This document shows positions 118 through 4,457 of a stretch of 4,457 bases of DNA, in pieces. Position 1 is the first letter of the stretch, and every line of letters begins with the position of its first letter. The stretch is from a virus (lineage: Duplodnaviria; Heunggongvirae; Uroviricota; Caudoviricetes), in IMG/VR virus record IMGVR_UViG_3300030444_000070. One strand, written 5' to 3'. The translations under genes were made by a program, and so were the position numbers. Below the pieces are notes generated by a model. That model was not told the DNA's origin. It ran no database searches and saw only the letters and a list, made by a program, of their open reading frames with translations.

Positions 118-273
118 TTACCTTTCAGATTCGTAGGCTGTGAAGACAGTGACCTCCGTCTGGCCGGTTCGGATTCGTACCTCGCAGAGGTCTTTCCTCG
201 TTACCAGTGCCGTCACAATGACGGTTAAACAGATGACGATCAGAGCGATTAACATCGCTTTTTGCTGCTTCAT
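118..273 (-). CDS. hok: Hok/Gef-family type I toxin, 51 aa (MKQQKAMLIALIVICLTVIVTALVTRKDLCEVRIRTGQTEVTVFTAYESER)
   Basis: Own translation of the minus strand: ATG at 273..271, TAA at 120..118. The ORF is below the six-frame track size cutoff. SD-like CAAGGAGAAG lies 6 nt upstream of the ATG, as in R1 hok. The protein has the Hok/Gef hallmarks: single N-terminal TM helix, LVTRKDLCE motif, C-terminal FTAYE. It most resembles Gef/HokC and RelF/HokD from memory; the exact paralog is not assigned. Confidence 0.85.
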   Translation of the reverse strand: MKQQKAMLIALIVICLTVIVTALVTRKDLCEVRIRTGQTEVTVFTAYESER

Positions 274-331
274 AGCCTGCTTCTCCTTGACCTTTTGGTC
301 GGTAAGAGGCTAATCTACGTATGCTAAGCAT
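125..331 (-). CDS. mok: Mok-like overlapping reading frame (modulator of killing), 68 aa, coupling hok translation
   Basis: ORF-track frame 125..331 overlaps hok in a different frame and ends 7 nt before the hok stop, as mok does in hok/sok loci. GAGG lies 9 nt upstream of its ATG. The protein itself is low-complexity, which is typical for Mok. Confidence 0.5.
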   Translation of the reverse strand: MLSIRRLASYRPKGQGEAGYEAAKSDVNRSDRHLFNRHCDGTGNEERPLRGTNPNRPDGGHCLHSLRI

Positions 332-385
332 AGATATGGCCTCAGATTAATGTTAAGCGTCTTGCAGGACGCGTAATGTTATCTG
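321..385 (+). ncRNA. sok: Predicted Sok-like antisense RNA covering the mok translation initiation region
   Basis: Plus-strand promoter candidate TTGACC (287..292), 16-nt spacer, GCTAAT (309..314) inside the mok 5' end puts the start near 321. The transcript would be antisense to the mok SD and start codon. A GC hairpin GCGTC-TTGCAG-GACGC (357..372) followed by a U-rich tract gives a ~64-nt RNA. Boundaries are approximate. Confidence 0.35.
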
Positions 386-440
386 GGGCTTTCTTCTATC
401 TGCTTTTCGGGTCATGCCTGAAGCAGATAGCCTCAAGCAC

Positions 441-480
441 CCGCAACGATTGTATCAATGTCTGGCTTTTTTTCTATAGA
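441..480 (-). promoter_or_regulatory. Predicted hok mRNA promoter (extended -10 TGaTACAAT) and transcript start
   Basis: Minus strand reads CATTGATACAAT (rc of 449..460) with a TG extension. About 7 nt downstream the transcript would begin GGTGCTTGAGGCTATCTGC, which closely resembles the 5' end of R1 hok mRNA (GGCGCTTGAGGCTTTCTGCC, recalled from memory). A 10-bp inverted repeat CTATCTGCTT / AAGCAGATAG (396..405 and 421..430) would form a 5' leader hairpin. Confidence 0.35.
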
Positions 481-700
481 AATCACCTGGAAGGGTGAAT
501 ATCCACATCAGAAGAAATGTTGCAGCAAACATGATCCCTAATGGCCAGACCGCGCCAAAGAAAATCCATACTAAGATCTCCTCTGCTCGTTCTTTGCGGT
601 CGATATCGACAAGCATTTTTCGGCTGATCATGTATACACAGAAGCCAATACAAACATATCCTGCAAAAGCGATCGCTAACTGTAAAAAATCAGATTGCAT
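455..700 (-). CDS. Small membrane protein of unknown function, 81 aa, two predicted TM segments
   Basis: Track ORF 455..781. I prefer the internal ATG at 700..698 because GAGG lies 6 nt upstream; the 781 start has no SD and would overlap the repL stop. Two hydrophobic stretches (FLQLAIAFAGYVCIGFCVYMI and ILVWIFFGAVWPLGIMFAATFLLMWIF) are separated by a charged loop, and the C-terminus is basic. No family recognised. Confidence 0.5.
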   Translation of the reverse strand: MQSDFLQLAIAFAGYVCIGFCVYMISRKMLVDIDRKERAEEILVWIFFGAVWPLGIMFAATFLLMWIFTLPGDFYRKKARH

Positions 701-750
701 CTCCGACCTCAAACTGAAAACGCCAGGTGACTCCAGATTAGAGCAATCTA

Positions 751-1596
751 TCACCCCCTGAATCCTGCCGGTATACCCCATTTTTCGTTATCTTTATTTT
801 TGGCTAAAACCGCATTAAGAGCTTCGTTTACCGTCATGCAATGCGGTAGATTATCGAAGTTTGATATCCCGCCAATATCAGGCGAACGCTTGTTCTTCAG
901 GTAAGCATATTTCCGCGCAGCCGCCTCTACTTTCTGCTTGAACTCATGTTTTTGAGCGCGTTTTTTGGATAACCGCAGATTGTCAGCCTTTGCTTTTGCC
1001 TCAGCGATCCATGAAGTCAATTTTTTGAGTCTGGTCGTTCCGGCACCGCCGGAAACTGATCTTTTTGTTTTTTTAACTTGTGACTTCTTATTCTTTATTG
1101 CCACGTCATCCTGACAGGGGGAGGGGGTATCATTTTGACATGGGGGTGTGGATAAAAAATCAAATAAAGCCAATGTCTTAGCGAGAACAGCTTTAACCTT
1201 GGTTGCGGCTGAAGAGATCTTTAATTTGCTTTCAATCAGCGCGTTTTTAGCGTGTTGTGCGAAGGCCAAAAAGGATGGTGTAAACCGGTACAGGTTAGCG
1301 CGGCGTTCACGGTGATCGCCGATAACAATCTCTACCGACAGGATTCCTTTGTTTACAGCTTCACGGAATGCGCGAACGACGGTTGATTGGCTATAACCAG
1401 TTTCTGCCGCGATCATGCGGTGAGGCTTGTGAATGAAGTATTCACTGGTTGTTGCCGCGAGATTTGCACATTGCGACAGGATATGCCCGGCGCTACGGGA
1501 TAGACCGGAGTGTGTTACAAAGCAGGCCAATTCATAGCCAGAAAAAGTAAAATCGCTCATCGTTATACAGCTCAGGAAAGTGACTTTAGCCAGCAT
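751..1596 (-). CDS. repL: RepL-like lytic replication initiator, 281 aa, winged-HTH (RMIAAETGYSQSTVVRAFREAVNKGIL), lysine-rich C-terminal half
   Basis: Long ORF immediately downstream of kilA with a 29-bp gap. The order (operator, kilA, repL) and the size (281 aa, matching my recollection of P1 RepL) fit the P1 lytic replicon. HTH motif seen directly in the translation. The start could instead be the second Met at 1560; neither has a strong SD. Confidence 0.8.
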   Translation of the reverse strand: MLAKVTFLSCITMSDFTFSGYELACFVTHSGLSRSAGHILSQCANLAATTSEYFIHKPHRMIAAETGYSQSTVVRAFREAVNKGILSVEIVIGDHRERRANLYRFTPSFLAFAQHAKNALIESKLKISSAATKVKAVLAKTLALFDFLSTPPCQNDTPSPCQDDVAIKNKKSQVKKTKRSVSGGAGTTRLKKLTSWIAEAKAKADNLRLSKKRAQKHEFKQKVEAAARKYAYLKNKRSPDIGGISNFDNLPHCMTVNEALNAVLAKNKDNEKWGIPAGFRG

Positions 1597-1625
1597 TACA
1601 ATGCTGGTGGTTCTTACTACGTCTG

Positions 1626-2426
1626 TTAGCGCGTAGCCGCGACAGGTACCAGCACACCAGCATCAAGCAATCGCTTCATTAGCCACTGCTGACCTTTGCC
1701 GGTTATACGAGTCGTGAAAGAAATCCTGCTTCCGTTGCTTGTATCGATCACGGTTTCTTTGAGGGTGAAGTACCCACGGGATATGTATTCTTGTTTGGGG
1801 ACGTTCCTGCGTTCATCGGTTGCGATCAGAATTCCGTTATCACGCAACCAGGTGAAGAGATAGTTTTGGCCCAGGCCGAGCACTTTGGCATAGTTGCCGA
1901 TTAGAACCCCGCTGGCGGTAGCAACGCGTTCGGCGAATTCGACTTTAGGCGCATCCATAAGCATTTTTTGCTCCAGCCGTTGCTTTTGCTCTGCCAGGTC
2001 GGCAGCCAAACGGAGAGCTTCAGGGAGACTCTGCGGAATAGCAGGTTGCAATCTTCCGGCTCGATAGTCGATAAATGTCTGGTTTACCTTCAGCCGAAAC
2101 GCGGGAGAAATCCAGCCTGCGTACTCCACAGCGAGCAATTCATGGGCAAACGTACCGCCGCCACGGCCTTCGAACGAAACTATGCAATTCTGCATAGTTT
2201 CTTTTTCAAGCTCTTCGATGAGCTGTTTGGCTGACAGCGTTCTTAGCCATTGAGCTGGCGCTTTATGGGCACCGAGTCCGCTCGCTCTGTGTAGAGCATT
2301 AAGGTTGTAACGGCCAGCGCGGTCGGTCGTAATTTCAACACCACAAATAACAGGCAGAGTGGTTGAAGGATCGACATTTTGATGAAGGTTTGATATATTC
2401 ATATCCGCATTGAATGTTTGTTGCAT
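1626..2426 (-). CDS. kilA: KilA protein, 266 aa: N-terminal KilA-N DNA-binding domain plus C-terminal KilAC/ANT domain
   Basis: Track ORF with GGAG 7-8 nt upstream of the ATG. The N-terminus (VICGVEITTDRAGRYNLNALHRASG...APAQWLRT) looks like KilA-N. The C-terminal ~130 aa are clearly homologous to the C-terminus of the neighbouring ant product. The size agrees with my recollection of P1 KilA (266 aa). Confidence 0.85.
   Translation of the reverse strand: MQQTFNADMNISNLHQNVDPSTTLPVICGVEITTDRAGRYNLNALHRASGLGAHKAPAQWLRTLSAKQLIEELEKETMQNCIVSFEGRGGGTFAHELLAVEYAGWISPAFRLKVNQTFIDYRAGRLQPAIPQSLPEALRLAADLAEQKQRLEQKMLMDAPKVEFAERVATASGVLIGNYAKVLGLGQNYLFTWLRDNGILIATDERRNVPKQEYISRGYFTLKETVIDTSNGSRISFTTRITGKGQQWLMKRLLDAGVLVPVAATR
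2371..2399 (+). promoter_or_regulatory. Plus-strand antisense promoter (P53as-like): TCGACA, 17 nt, TGaTATATT
   Basis: -35 TCGACA at 2371..2376, 17-nt spacer, -10 TATATT at 2394..2399 with a TG extension at 2391..2392. It sits inside the first codons of kilA and points away from the gene toward the operator region. Confidence 0.45.
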
Positions 2427-2495
2427 TTTTTCTCCAAATTTGCATCAACCTTCAATCACCAGCTCGAAATGGTGATTCTTTGCACTTAGAAAACG

Positions 2496-2512
2496 AAATT
2501 TATTAGAGCAAA
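2496..2512 (-). promoter_or_regulatory. C1-type repressor operator (Op53-like) upstream of kilA
   Basis: Minus-strand 17-mer TTTGCTCTAATAAATTT matches the asymmetric P1 C1 operator consensus ATTGCTCTAATAAATTT (recalled) at 16/17. It lies 70-86 bp upstream of the kilA ATG. A second copy is at 4166..4182. Confidence 0.55.
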
Positions 2513-2554
2513 TTTTTCTGACTCGATCCAGATCGGGTTGGTCGATCTGCTCAG

Positions 2555-2592
2555 AAACCTGCCAGTTTGCTGGCAGGTTTTTTCTTTTGTTA
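2555..2592 (+). terminator. Rho-independent terminator: stem CCTGCCAG / CTGGCAGG, loop TTTG, then TTTTTTCTTTTGT
   Basis: Perfect 8-bp stem (extendable by AAA/TTT pairs) with the T-tract on the plus strand. On the minus strand it is preceded by an A-tract and followed by GTTTCTGAG, so it may also act weakly after ant. The T-tract overlaps the ant stop codon. Confidence 0.6.
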
Positions 2593-3384
2593 ACCTATTG
2601 CTACTGGTTTTAACAAACCAGCATCAAGTAGCTTGCGAGTTAACCACTGCTGGCCTTTACCCGTTAATTGGGGCGTCAGCCGTATCTGGTAGCCATTTTC
2701 ATCATCCAGCACCACTTCTTTCACCGTGAAATACCCGGCGTTAATGTACTGCTGGCGCGGTACGTTTTTGCGCGCACCAAAAGCCATGAGAATGCCGTTC
2801 TGGCGCAACCATGAGAAAAGGGCGTTTTGCTTAAGTCCAACGACCTTTGCAAAGTTCCCGATCAGGATTCCATTAGCCGCTGATACCCGGTCGGCAAAAT
2901 CGACTTTAGGGGCTGCGGCCACCAGCTGTTGTTCCAACTGCATTTTCTGTTCTGCCAACTCGGCAGCCAGGCGTAGAGCGTCTGGTAATGTTTGGGGGAT
3001 CGATGGGGCAGGGGAGTTTGCCTGCTGCAATTCTTCCAGTTTGTCGATCAGCGAACGGCGGACTGCTTTTGACTCGCGCGCGGCGACTCGCAGGGCTTGT
3101 TTGTAGGTCATGGTTATGACAACCATAGGCGTACCGCCACCTGGCGGCACGGTTGCACTTTTTGTGTAACCGTCCTCACCTTCTAATTCGTCGAGTATTT
3201 TTTTGATGAATTTGTTGTTCCGAACCTCTGGTTCCCCACATAACTTACGCGCTTCATTGACCATCTTTAACAGCGTCTGGCTGTCGATTGTGTCTCCAGT
3301 GTTGGAGATAACATTCACAGCTGGTGATGGCGTAGCTGAAGCAACAGATGCTGGTTTTTTAACATTCAAATTATTACTGGTCAT
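2590..3384 (-). CDS. ant2: Antirepressor Ant2, 264 aa: in-frame internal initiation product of the same ORF
   Basis: In-frame ATG at 3384..3382 is preceded by a strong SD, AAGGAGG, with an 8-nt spacer. P1 ant is known to produce Ant1 and Ant2 from two in-frame starts (recalled). Whether both are used here is an inference. Confidence 0.45.
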   Translation of the reverse strand: MTSNNLNVKKPASVASATPSPAVNVISNTGDTIDSQTLLKMVNEARKLCGEPEVRNNKFIKKILDELEGEDGYTKSATVPPGGGTPMVVITMTYKQALRVAARESKAVRRSLIDKLEELQQANSPAPSIPQTLPDALRLAAELAEQKMQLEQQLVAAAPKVDFADRVSAANGILIGNFAKVVGLKQNALFSWLRQNGILMAFGARKNVPRQQYINAGYFTVKEVVLDDENGYQIRLTPQLTGKGQQWLTRKLLDAGLLKPVAIG

Positions 3385-3633
3385 TCTATGTGCCTCCTTT
3401 CTCATTTCTGCTGCCACCGTTGCGTAACGTAGACGTCCTTGTTCAATCAAATAATCCCTGATCTCGGCTATCAGTAGCCTGTTGATCACAGCCTTATCTG
3501 TTCGGGTATAAAAACGTCTGGTTATCATGAAATAGTTGGCAATTGCGCCGGGGATCTCCCGTGTCGGCATACAGGCAGTATGCAGGGCGATCGCTTCGGC
3601 TATGTCATTACGGGTGACGAGAGGTTTTTTCAT
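2590..3633 (-). CDS. ant1: Antirepressor Ant1, 347 aa, with C-terminal KilAC/ANT domain
   Basis: Track ORF. The ATG at 3633 overlaps the stop of the upstream icd-like ORF as ATGA, and AGGGGG lies 4 nt upstream. The C-terminal ~130 aa (LPDALRLAAELAEQK...GKGQQWL) are paralogous to the KilA C-terminus. The middle region loosely resembles Rha-like regulators. Confidence 0.8.
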   Translation of the reverse strand: MKKPLVTRNDIAEAIALHTACMPTREIPGAIANYFMITRRFYTRTDKAVINRLLIAEIRDYLIEQGRLRYATVAAEMRKEAHRMTSNNLNVKKPASVASATPSPAVNVISNTGDTIDSQTLLKMVNEARKLCGEPEVRNNKFIKKILDELEGEDGYTKSATVPPGGGTPMVVITMTYKQALRVAARESKAVRRSLIDKLEELQQANSPAPSIPQTLPDALRLAAELAEQKMQLEQQLVAAAPKVDFADRVSAANGILIGNFAKVVGLKQNALFSWLRQNGILMAFGARKNVPRQQYINAGYFTVKEVVLDDENGYQIRLTPQLTGKGQQWLTRKLLDAGLLKPVAIG

Positions 3634-3851
3634 AAAACCCCCTGAACGTCGGCAGAGAAGGGGAGGTTCCAGTAACTAAGTGAATTGCGCGAGTTAGTTG
3701 AAAAACGGGCAGTAAAAATGCAGGGGCCATCAGGCAATTGAGAGCGTGCTTCGTCTTCTGTTGCTGCGATGACGAAGTGATAGTGGTGTTTTTTGCAGGA
3801 ATAGAAACGCCAGATGAATTCTTGGCGTGCGCAAGGATTGGCATTAACCAT
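3630..3851 (-). CDS. icd: Icd-like small protein, 73 aa, translationally coupled to ant
   Basis: Track ORF (MVNANPCARQEFIWRFYSCKKHHYHF...). GAGG lies 8 nt upstream of the ATG. Its TGA overlaps the ant ATG (ATGA). Size (73 aa) and position between the c4-like region and ant match P1 icd. The protein sequence itself is not independently recognised. Confidence 0.55.
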   Translation of the reverse strand: MVNANPCARQEFIWRFYSCKKHHYHFVIAATEDEARSQLPDGPCIFTARFSTNSRNSLSYWNLPFSADVQGVL

Positions 3852-3907
3852 AGTTACGGCCTCACAATCAGGTTTAACAACCTGCTACCCGCTGCTAAAC
3901 AGGTGGC

Positions 3908-3990
3908 AGGACGTGACGGGGTTAGCAGACTGGCGATTGTGAAACCAGCAGGCCGAAGCCTCCCCATCACGCCCCACCATAATTTGGGCG
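3908..3990 (-). ncRNA. c4: Predicted c4-like antisense repressor RNA
   Basis: On the minus strand, UCACAAUC (rc of 3935..3942) and CUGCUAAC (rc of 3922..3929) lie 6 nt apart. Each is complementary to two target pairs on the same transcript: upstream GUUUAGCAG (rc 4061..4069) and GAUUGUG (rc 4047..4053), and downstream GUUUAGCAG (rc 3892..3900) and GAUUGUGA (rc 3862..3869), the last overlapping the icd SD GUGAGG. Local hairpins place the first motif in a loop. The RNA ends are not determinable from sequence; boundaries are approximate. Confidence 0.35.
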
Positions 3991-4098
3991 TAACGCGGTT
4001 TTACGGACACAAAAATACCGCAATATCGGATATCTGCGGCTGTCCGCACAATCATTCAGGCTGCTAAACCCGGTCGCAGAATTTGCTACGACGGCGAA

Positions 4099-4127
4099 AC
4101 TATAAGCCTGAACGATTAAAAGGTCAA
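4099..4127 (-). promoter_or_regulatory. Sigma70 promoter for the c4-icd-ant operon (P51-like): TTGACC, 17 nt, TATAGT
   Basis: Minus strand: -35 TTGACC (rc of 4122..4127), exact 17-nt spacer, -10 TATAGT (rc of 4099..4104). Predicted start near 4092, upstream of both upstream target motifs. Confidence 0.5.
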
Positions 4128-4165: not shown

Positions 4166-4182
4166 AAATTTATTAGAGCAGA
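4166..4182 (-). promoter_or_regulatory. C1-type repressor operator (Op51-like) upstream of the immunity-I operon promoter
   Basis: Minus-strand 17-mer TCTGCTCTAATAAATTT matches the recalled P1 C1 operator consensus at 15/17. It is nearly identical to the 2496..2512 copy, and the flanks are also conserved (~27/33 over 2483..2515 versus 4153..4185). Confidence 0.5.
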
Positions 4183-4457
4183 TTAGTGTCGTGCAATAGA
4201 TATATTATTTGTGATGAAAAATAATGCAGAGGGATATTGTAACTTTAAGATGGATATCAATAGTCGATACATAAATTAAGTTAGCAATAAACTATTAACT
4301 TAAGAAATAATGCAGATGGTGAACTTGTCTCTGACTTTTCAGCTATACACAATAAGTTAGGGATAGCTTATAAAGGTAATGACTCCAACTTATTGATAGT
4401 GTTTTATGTTCAGATAATGCCCGATGACCTTGTCATGCAGCTCCACCGATTTTGAGA

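What the first reader, a model, noticed from the sequence alone, without database searches (positions are those of the whole stretch)
2371..2594. Plus-strand antisense transcription unit over the kilA start and operator
A near-consensus promoter (TCGACA, 17 nt, TGaTATATT) inside the kilA 5' end faces a strong plus-strand intrinsic terminator ~185 nt away, with no coding capacity between them. This fits antisense control of the kilA-repL operon and therefore of the lytic origin that transcription activates.
Basis: partly seen in the sequence, partly recalled or inferred. Interest (0 to 1): 0.5.

Follow-up and report, generated by a model that had tools for sequence, protein, structure and literature searches.

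The report
Known P1 antisense promoter P53as
The plus-strand promoter and terminator are real, but they are the antisense unit P53as (PaskilA) of phage P1's lytic replicon, which was characterised in 1995, so this is a correct rediscovery and not a new finding.

Summary
The window is the immI and lytic-replicon segment of a P1-like phage-plasmid (96-98% identical to P1 and P7). The genes all lie on the minus strand, in transcription order c4, icd, ant1/2, kilA, repL.

TCGACA (2371-2376), a 17-nt spacer and TGaTATATT (2391-2399) lie on the plus strand inside the kilA 5' end. They face a 13-bp hairpin with a T-run (2553-2592). A promoter match this good is expected 0.05 times per shuffled window.

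The P1 reference genome (AF234172) annotates these same bases as "sigma 70 promoter PaskilA; corresponds to former P53as". It places the start of an "RNA antisense to 5' region of kilA" at window position 2407. The window is 99% identical to P1 here. The primary paper is Heinrich et al. [quoted passage not shown]

The predicted RNA of about 180 nt crosses the kilA start codon, its ribosome-binding site, the C1 operator Op53 and the promoter P53. P53 fires the opposite way from about 88 bp away. Interest is low.

One side observation may be new. The unrelated repL leader of phage D6-like plasmids carries a similarly placed promoter and terminator pair.

The parts
2371..2376 (+). -35 hexamer TCGACA of P53as (PaskilA), inside the kilA coding sequence
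   Evidence: Scan. Same bases annotated as minus_35_signal PaskilA in AF234172 (L001 2435-2440 = window +64). Invariant in 66 distinct relatives.
2391..2399 (+). Extended -10 TGaTATATT of P53as (PaskilA)
   Evidence: AF234172 minus_10_signal at L001 2458-2463. TATATT is invariant. The only change is A to G at 2393 (the n of TGn) in 1 of 66 distinct sequences.
2407..2407 (+). Transcription start of the antisense RNA, by homology to the annotated P1 start site
   Evidence: AF234172 misc_feature 'transcription start site of RNA antisense to 5' region of kilA' at L001 2471. The alignment has no gaps in this stretch.
2407..2590 (+). Predicted antisense RNA of about 177-184 nt. It is complementary to the first 20 nt of kilA, its ribosome-binding site, its 5' UTR, Op53 and P53.
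   Evidence: Start site and terminator. The RNA folds to -57 kcal/mol with z = -4.7 against shuffles. There is no Rfam family; the only hit is a sub-threshold ctRNA match on the terminator hairpin (21 bits against a gathering score of 50).
2553..2592 (+). Intrinsic terminator of the antisense RNA: 13-bp stem, 4-nt loop, T-run
   Evidence: reported on the plus strand only. Among relatives the only changes are in the loop (2568, 2569) plus one A to G at 2557 that keeps a G-U pair. It is retained in E. albertii plasmids that lack ant.
2424..2435 (-). kilA start codon (2426-2424) and GGAGA ribosome-binding site (2435-2431), both covered by the antisense RNA
   Evidence: ORF 1626-2426 on the minus strand, with KilA-N and ANT domains. 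The ribosome-binding site is annotated in X15638.
2496..2512 (-). C1 repressor operator Op53 (OrepL): AAATTTATTAGAGCAAA on the plus strand
   Evidence: AF234172 protein_bind at L001 2560-2576. The P7 annotation agrees. One change at one position in 1 of 66 distinct sequences.
2502..2530 (-). P53 (PkilA), the C1-controlled promoter of kilA-repL (-10 TCTAAT at 2507-2502, -35 TGGATC at 2530-2525), convergent with P53as
   Evidence: AF234172 and X15638 promoter annotations. Three GATC Dam sites at 2525-2528, 2531-2534 and 2544-2547 are annotated in P1 and present here.
1626..2426 (-). kilA, the first gene of the lytic replicon operon
751..1596 (-). repL with the internal oriL, the downstream target of the control
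   Evidence: 97.5% amino-acid identity to P1 RepL.

Best explanation
The feature is the P53as (PaskilA) antisense unit of a P1-like phage-plasmid. It is a sigma-70 promoter with an extended -10, embedded in kilA codons 10-19 and pointing away from the gene.

By homology to P1, transcription starts at 2407 and stops at the hairpin and T-run at 2553-2592, giving an RNA of about 180 nt. P53, the C1-repressed promoter of kilA-repL, fires in the opposite direction from a start near 2495. The two start sites face each other about 88 bp apart. The two transcripts are complementary over about 89 nt, and this overlap includes the kilA ribosome-binding site and start codon.

Because its hexamers lie about 100 bp from Op53, P53as is not controlled by C1 and fires constitutively. 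It lowers productive P53 transcription and therefore RepL synthesis and the transcription that activates oriL. Weak or transient derepression of P53 then does not start lytic replication.

- the anatomy of the unit;
- orthology to the annotated P1 element;
- conservation across relatives.

Taken from the P1 literature (title confirmed here, details from my own recollection of the abstract):
- a 180-base constitutive transcript;
- insensitivity to C1;
- mutual inhibition of P53 and P53as;
- higher repL transcription and replication in a P53as promoter-down mutant.

Inferred:
- the main mechanism is transcriptional interference between the convergent promoters (collision and occlusion);
- RNA-RNA pairing (kilA translation block, duplex cleavage, polarity on repL) contributes as well;
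- the same antisense activity also counters read-through from the upstream ant operon.
For: -: a 10/12 promoter with TGn is expected 0.053 times per shuffled window. A strong plus-strand terminator lies about 185 nt downstream.
- AF234172 annotates the same bases as PaskilA (former P53as), with a mapped antisense start site, and Op53 and P53 downstream in convergent orientation.
- the window is 99% identical to P1 over 2330-2620. All differences lie outside the hexamers, the operator and the terminator stem.
- two held papers cite Heinrich et al. [quoted passage not shown]
- the unit is at least 95% identical in 22 phage records and 510 plasmid records.
- in 66 distinct sequences both hexamers are invariant, and the changes in the terminator are in the loop or keep a wobble pair.
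- two E. albertii plasmids lose homology immediately after the T-run, where ant is replaced. The terminator therefore belongs to the kilA-repL module.
- the predicted RNA is much more structured than shuffled controls (z = -4.7).
Against: - No transcript, promoter-activity or mutant data exist for this particular element. Function is carried over from P1 by 99% identity.
- I could not open the primary paper. The transcript length, the C1 independence and the mutant phenotype rest on the GenBank annotation, the paper's title and my memory of its abstract.
- Conservation of the promoter cannot be separated from the coding constraint of kilA. There is 1 variable site in 29, against 0.12 variable sites per position in the rest of kilA, which gives a Poisson P of about 0.14.
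- The whole clade is so similar that there is no covariation evidence for the RNA's internal structure.
- The split between transcriptional interference and RNA pairing is not resolved by anything I ran.
Confidence: 0.9

Rival explanations
1. The RNA is the effector, not the act of convergent transcription. The 180-nt transcript pairs with the kilA leader, blocks the ribosome-binding site and start codon and/or triggers RNase III cleavage. Untranslated kilA mRNA then suffers Rho-dependent polarity, which lowers repL transcription. This would resemble CopA of plasmid R1 or sar RNA of phage P22.
For: The predicted RNA is fully complementary to the kilA ribosome-binding site (2431-2435) and ATG (2424-2426) and to the whole P53 leader of about 69 nt. 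It is strongly structured, with several hairpins that could present loops. The title of the 1995 paper credits control to 'an antisense RNA'.
Against: KilA itself is not needed for replicon function (text of PMC9948254), so a pure translation block on kilA must act indirectly through polarity. As I recall the abstract, inhibition between P53 and P53as is mutual, which is a signature of interference in cis. The kilA leader shows no special structure (z = -0.4). No trans test is known to me.
Confidence: 0.3
2. The hairpin at 2553-2582 is mainly the terminator of the upstream c4-icd-ant operon on the minus strand, and the promoter-like motif in kilA is an incidental consensus match with no transcript of consequence.
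For: The hairpin lies 8-37 nt beyond the ant stop at 2590. Promoter-like matches in general are no more frequent in the window than in shuffles (5 found, 5.8 expected).
Against: The T-run follows the stem only on the plus strand. On the minus strand the stem is followed by TTTCTGAGCAG, and the scan reports no minus-strand terminator there. The hairpin is kept in plasmids where ant is absent. A 10/12 match with TGn is expected only 0.053 times per window. P1 has an annotated antisense start site at the homologous base.
Confidence: 0.03
3. The plus-strand transcript is a small mRNA for the 30-residue ORF at 2414-2506 (MFVAFFLQICINLQSPARNGDSLHLENEIY).
For: The ORF exists, starts with ATG 7 nt after the mapped start site, and lies wholly within the transcript.
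Against: It has no Shine-Dalgarno sequence and no Pfam match. The sequence is explained by constraints on the opposite strand (kilA codons, ribosome-binding site, operator). The clade is too uniform to test for coding selection.
Confidence: 0.03

Closest known systems
[quoted passage not shown]
   Same: It is the orthologous element: the same hexamers, spacer, start-site base, operator, convergent P53, Dam sites and terminator stem. Identity over 2330-2620 is 99%.
   Different: There are three substitutions (2352, 2523, 2542) and one fewer T in the terminator tail, none of them in a functional motif. The host element is a P1-like plasmid variant that carries hok/sok where the P1 reference has rlfA/rlfB.
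sar RNA of phage P22 immI (a small antisense RNA started inside the 5' end of ant and transcribed against Pant); from my own knowledge
   Same: A promoter inside the 5' end of a KilA/Ant-type gene, convergent with that gene's promoter, makes a short untranslated RNA complementary to the ribosome-binding site and start codon.
   Different: There is no sequence relationship. sar is about 69 nt and regulates an antirepressor. P53as regulates a replication operon and is about 180 nt.
Convergent-promoter transcriptional interference, for example pR/pL of coliphage 186; from my own knowledge
   Same: Two face-to-face sigma-70 promoters lie less than 100 bp apart at a lysis/lysogeny-relevant switch, so firing of one lowers the output of the other.
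   Different: In phage 186 both transcripts are mRNAs for regulators. Here one of the two is a terminated non-coding RNA.
Countertranscript (ctRNA) control of plasmid replication: R1 CopA, ColE1 RNA I, pT181 and pIP501 RNAs
   Same: A constitutive cis-encoded antisense RNA against the leader of a replication-initiator transcript acts as a negative regulator of replication.
   Different: It is not a member of any Rfam ctRNA family (the best hit is 21 bits against a gathering score of 50, on the terminator hairpin only). It controls a lytic origin activated by transcription, not steady-state copy number. A repressor (C1) is the main on/off control.
C4 antisense RNA of P1/P7 immI, present in the same window at 3899-3984 (Rfam RF01695)
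   Same: It is a second small regulatory RNA in the same immunity and replication region of the same phage.
   Different: C4 is processed from the sense transcript and acts in trans on the a2/b2 target sites to block icd-ant translation. P53as RNA is a true cis-antisense transcript from its own promoter.

Membership tests
P1 P53as (PaskilA) antisense unit | Sequence orthology to the annotated P1 promoter: -35 TCGACA, 17-nt spacer, -10 TATATT with TGn | tested here: met
   every base from 2353 to 2522 is identical to AF234172; those bases are annotated as PaskilA (former P53as).
P1 P53as (PaskilA) antisense unit | Located inside the 5' end of kilA, on the opposite strand, pointing upstream | tested here: met
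   The kilA ORF is 1626-2426 on the minus strand. The promoter is 2371-2399 on the plus strand.
P1 P53as (PaskilA) antisense unit | Convergent with the C1-controlled Op53/P53 element | tested here: met
   Op53 at 2496-2512 and P53 at 2502-2530 on the minus strand, by homology to the annotations. The operator sequence is present.
P1 P53as (PaskilA) antisense unit | Gives a discrete transcript of about 180 nt | tested here: inconclusive
   The predicted length from the homologous start site (2407) to the T-run (2583-2590) is 177-184 nt, which fits the reported size. No RNA data could be examined.
P1 P53as (PaskilA) antisense unit | Constitutive and not repressed by C1 | not testable with these tools
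   Only the geometry is available: the hexamers lie about 100 bp from Op53 and no second operator overlaps them.
P1 P53as (PaskilA) antisense unit | Inactivating it raises repL transcription and lytic-replicon replication | not testable with these tools
   This needs a mutant. It is reported for P1 in Heinrich et al. 1995, which is cited but whose text is not held.
Plasmid countertranscript RNAs (Rfam ctRNA families) | Match to a curated covariance model at its gathering score | tested here: not met
   RF00489 scores 21.1 bits against a gathering score of 50, E = 0.42, and covers only the terminator hairpin.
Convergent-promoter transcriptional interference modules | Two face-to-face promoters close enough for collision or occlusion | tested here: met
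   The start sites are at 2407 (plus) and about 2495 (minus), roughly 88 bp apart. Whether interference actually occurs cannot be tested here.

The most novel reading that the evidence does not exclude
An antisense promoter and terminator cassette at the 5' end of the first lytic-replicon gene may be a conserved design of P1-type phage-plasmids in general, not a peculiarity of P1. Phage D6 and about 118 D6-like plasmids have a RepL only 27% identical to the window's, no kilA, and no DNA similarity to P53as. Even so, they carry TTGAAA, a 17-nt spacer and TAAAAT inside repL codons 2-12 on the opposite strand, followed about 70 nt later by a hairpin with a T-run. In plasmids about 22% diverged, both hexamers and the terminator stem are unchanged, while the spacer, the loops and the intervening sequence differ. 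If this cassette is functional, antisense damping of RepL expression was either inherited from an old ancestor or evolved twice.
Probability: 0.45. Interest if true: 0.3.

Novelty: already known. Interest (0 to 1): 0.08.

Why it matters
The element belongs to the circuit that decides whether a P1-type prophage plasmid stays quiet or fires its lytic origin. The same kilA-repL cassette is the inducible high-copy replicon of PAC and P1 cloning vectors. All of this has been established for P1 since 1995. Finding it in one more P1-like plasmid adds no new biology. What the check does show is that the first-stage reader can recover a real, experimentally validated antisense unit from sequence alone. 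It also shows that the element is essentially invariant across more than 500 sequenced P1-like plasmids, and that it has no Rfam family.

Tried and rejected
- Rfam search of the whole window at E up to 1. No family covers the unit. A weak ctRNA_p42d hit falls on the terminator hairpin alone and was rejected as chance.
- Reading the primary literature. Heinrich 1995 could not be opened by DOI or by PMC306884, and Lobocka 2004 (PMC523184) is not held. Full-text searches for 'P53as' and 'PaskilA' found nothing relevant to phage. Only the reference-list citations could be confirmed. Two P1vir papers, one of them an RNA-seq study, do not mention the antisense RNA in the passages searched.
- Covariation support for the RNA structure. 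The clade is 95-100% identical, so there are too few substitutions. Only the pattern of loop variation against stem conservation at the terminator is informative.
- Testing whether the promoter is more conserved than the surrounding kilA codons. The result was not significant (1 of 29 variable sites against 12% background).
- Sensitive blastn for diverged copies of the unit. Nothing below 95% identity turned up in phages or plasmids, so the sequence is confined to the P1/P7 clade.
- The 30-aa plus-strand ORF as a gene. Rejected because it has no ribosome-binding site and no family match.
- The hairpin as the ant operon's terminator. Rejected on orientation and on its retention where ant is absent.

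Full report
**What the window is.** Megablast against phage records gives 96-98% identity over most of the window to P1, P7 and other Punavirus genomes.
- Genes, all on the minus strand: repL 751-1596, kilA 1626-2426 (KilA-N and ANT/KilAC domains), ant1/ant2 2590-3633 and icd 3630-3851.
- RNAs (Rfam): C4 RNA at 3899-3984, its a1/b1 targets at 4053-4105, and a sok antitoxin RNA at 268-442.
- The window is therefore the immI and lytic-replicon segment of a P1-like phage-plasmid.

**Checking the observation.**
- Promoter: TCGACA at 2371-2376, a 17-nt spacer and TATATT at 2394-2399 on the plus strand, with TG at 2391-2392. This is 10 of 12 consensus matches and an extended -10.
- Terminator: a plus-strand hairpin at 2553-2582 (13 pairs) followed by a T-run. 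No equivalent is reported on the minus strand.
- Chance: promoter-like matches in general are not enriched in the window (5 found, 5.8 expected). A match of this quality is rare: 0.053 expected per shuffled window on both strands.
- The only other 10/12 site in the window is the known promoter P51b/P1c4.
- One inaccuracy: a 30-codon ATG ORF lies at 2414-2506 on the plus strand. It has no Shine-Dalgarno sequence and no family match, so I do not consider it a gene.

**What it is.** The reference P1 record AF234172 is heavily annotated. Locus L001 maps to the window with an offset of +64.

| Feature annotated in AF234172 | L001 position | Window position |
|---|---|---|
| "sigma 70 promoter PaskilA; corresponds to former P53as" | 2435-2463 | 2371-2399 |
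| [quoted passage not shown] | 2471 | 2407 |
| C1 operator OrepL (former Op53) | 2560-2576 | 2496-2512 |
| PkilA (former P53), minus strand: -10 | 2566-2571 | 2502-2507 |
| PkilA (former P53), minus strand: -35 | 2589-2594 | 2525-2530 |

- Three Dam sites are annotated in the kilA regulatory region. The window has GATC at 2525-2528, 2531-2534 and 2544-2547.
- A pairwise alignment of window 2330-2620 with P1 is 99% identical. The differences are at 2352, 2523 and 2542, plus one fewer T in the terminator tail. None touches a hexamer, the operator or the terminator stem.
- The older record X15638 and the P7 genome annotate P53 and the operator at the same places.
- The feature is therefore the orthologue of P53as.

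- The paper itself is not in the library.
- From my own recollection of its abstract, which I could not verify here: P53as lies at the 5' end of kilA and gives a constitutive 180-base transcript running opposite to P53. C1 represses P53 but not P53as. The two promoters inhibit each other when unrepressed. A P53as promoter-down mutant shows strongly enhanced repL transcription and replication.
- The length predicted in the window, from 2407 to the T-run at 2583-2590, is 177-184 nt. This agrees with that figure.
- PMC9948254 confirms in its text that P53 is repressed through Op53, that kilA is dispensable, and that repL transcription is essential for lytic replication.

**Anatomy and likely mechanism.**
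- The antisense RNA covers the first 20 nt of the kilA coding sequence, the GGAGA ribosome-binding site (2431-2435), the whole kilA leader, Op53 and P53. It stops just before the ant stop codon.
- The P53 start should lie near 2495. The two start sites then face each other about 88 bp apart, and the transcripts overlap by about 89 nt.
- The antisense RNA folds far better than shuffled controls (-57 kcal/mol, z = -4.7). The kilA leader does not (z = -0.4).
- I favour transcriptional interference between the convergent promoters as the main effect, with RNA pairing as a secondary one. KilA protein is not needed for the replicon, so a pure translation block would have to act through polarity. As I recall, the reported inhibition is mutual.
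- This split is an inference. The RNA-pairing model is listed as a rival at about 0.3.
- A further inference: because the hairpin has no T-run on the minus strand, read-through from ant into kilA is plausible, and P53as would also oppose it.

**Conservation.**
- The 261-bp unit is at least 95% identical in 22 phage records and 510 plasmid records, mostly from Escherichia, with some from Salmonella, Klebsiella, Shigella and Cronobacter. Nothing more diverged was found.
- I compared 66 distinct sequences drawn from 80 fetched loci: most of the 80 IMG/VR contigs plus phage and plasmid loci fetched earlier.
  - Both hexamers are invariant.
  - The only change in the 29-bp promoter is at the n of TGn.
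  - Op53 has one change in one sequence.
  - The terminator varies only in its loop (2568, 2569), plus one A to G change at 2557 that keeps a G-U pair.
- The promoter's low variability cannot be told apart statistically from the kilA coding constraint (1 of 29 sites against 12% background, P about 0.14).
- In two E. albertii plasmids, homology to the window ends immediately after the T-run, where ant is replaced. One of them has an IS200-family transposase gene annotated about 140 nt beyond the break. The terminator therefore travels with the kilA-repL module. This argues against reading it as the ant operon's terminator.

**Side observation on phage D6.**
- Phage D6 has a RepL only 26.6% identical to the window's and no kilA in front of it.
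- Inside the 5' end of D6 repL, on the opposite strand, lies TTGAAA, a 17-nt spacer and TAAAAT (L003 4760-4788, 10 of 12 matches). A hairpin with a T-run follows at 4857-4880.
- The predicted RNA of about 98 nt forms three hairpins (z = -5.6).
- 118 plasmid records hold this region.
- In two of them that are about 22% diverged, both hexamers and the terminator stem are unchanged. The spacer has five substitutions, a 43-nt insertion follows, and the hairpin loops differ.
- This looks like a positional analogue of P53as in a lineage with no sequence similarity to it. I know of no publication on it. Its function is untested, and the hairpin might also serve the upstream pro gene.

**Verdict.** Novelty: already known. 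Interest is low at 0.08. The only mildly new lead is the D6-type analogue.

Noticed in passing
L003 (phage D6, MF356679 17500-25000) 4760-4892; L095 and L096 470-645: D6-like phage-plasmids have a diverged repL (27% identical) and no kilA. Inside the repL 5' end, on the opposite strand, they carry TTGAAA, a 17-nt spacer and TAAAAT, followed by a hairpin with a T-run. The predicted RNA of about 98 nt has z = -5.6. In plasmids about 22% diverged the hexamers and terminator stem are invariant, while the spacer, the loops and the intervening sequence differ. This is a possible non-homologous analogue of P53as.
   Followed up: partly
window 118-442: A hok/sok-type toxin-antitoxin locus lies downstream of repL: Hok ORF 118-273 on the minus strand (Pfam HOK_GEF, 78.7 bits) and sok RNA at 268-442 (Rfam, 113.9 bits). 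The P1 reference has rlfA/rlfB in this position, and homology to AF234172 starts only at 737.
   Followed up: partly
window 455-781 (-): A 108-aa ORF overlaps the 3' end of repL by 31 nt and lies between repL and hok/sok. It has no Pfam match above the cut-off and looks hydrophobic. It is absent from the P1 reference at this position.
   Followed up: no
window 4375-4457: The last 83 bases are the end of an IS1 element (100% identical to IS1F). Matches occur in more than 5000 plasmid records, often at several places in a record. Homology to P1-like plasmids stops at 4374.
   Followed up: yes
window 4180-4374: The segment to the right of the c4 operator (Op51, 4166-4182) is AT-rich. It does not match the sim region of the P1 reference, although it is shared with other P1-like plasmids. 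Its content was not examined.
   Followed up: no
window 4011-4092 (-): There is a sub-threshold Rfam match to isrK, an Hfq-binding RNA (43.7 bits against a gathering score of 50, E = 2.8e-7). It lies in the c4 leader and overlaps the a1/b1 target family hit.
   Followed up: no
L007 and L008 (E. albertii plasmids) versus window 2583-2600: In two E. albertii P1-like plasmids, homology ends right after the P53as terminator T-run and ant is missing. L007 has an IS200-family transposase gene annotated about 140 nt beyond the break. The terminator marks the module boundary of kilA-repL.
   Followed up: partly
window 2176-2201 (+) and 1589-1608 (+): Two more plus-strand terminator-like hairpins lie antisense to the operon. 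One is inside kilA (11-bp stem followed by TTTTTC) and one is in the kilA-repL junction. They could stop antisense transcription entering from the repL side. They were not examined.
   Followed up: no
window 1626-2000 versus 2590-2960: The 3' halves of kilA and ant1 encode paralogous KilAC (ANT) domains (Pfam PF03374 in both). The P53as unit therefore sits between two related gene ends.
   Followed up: no
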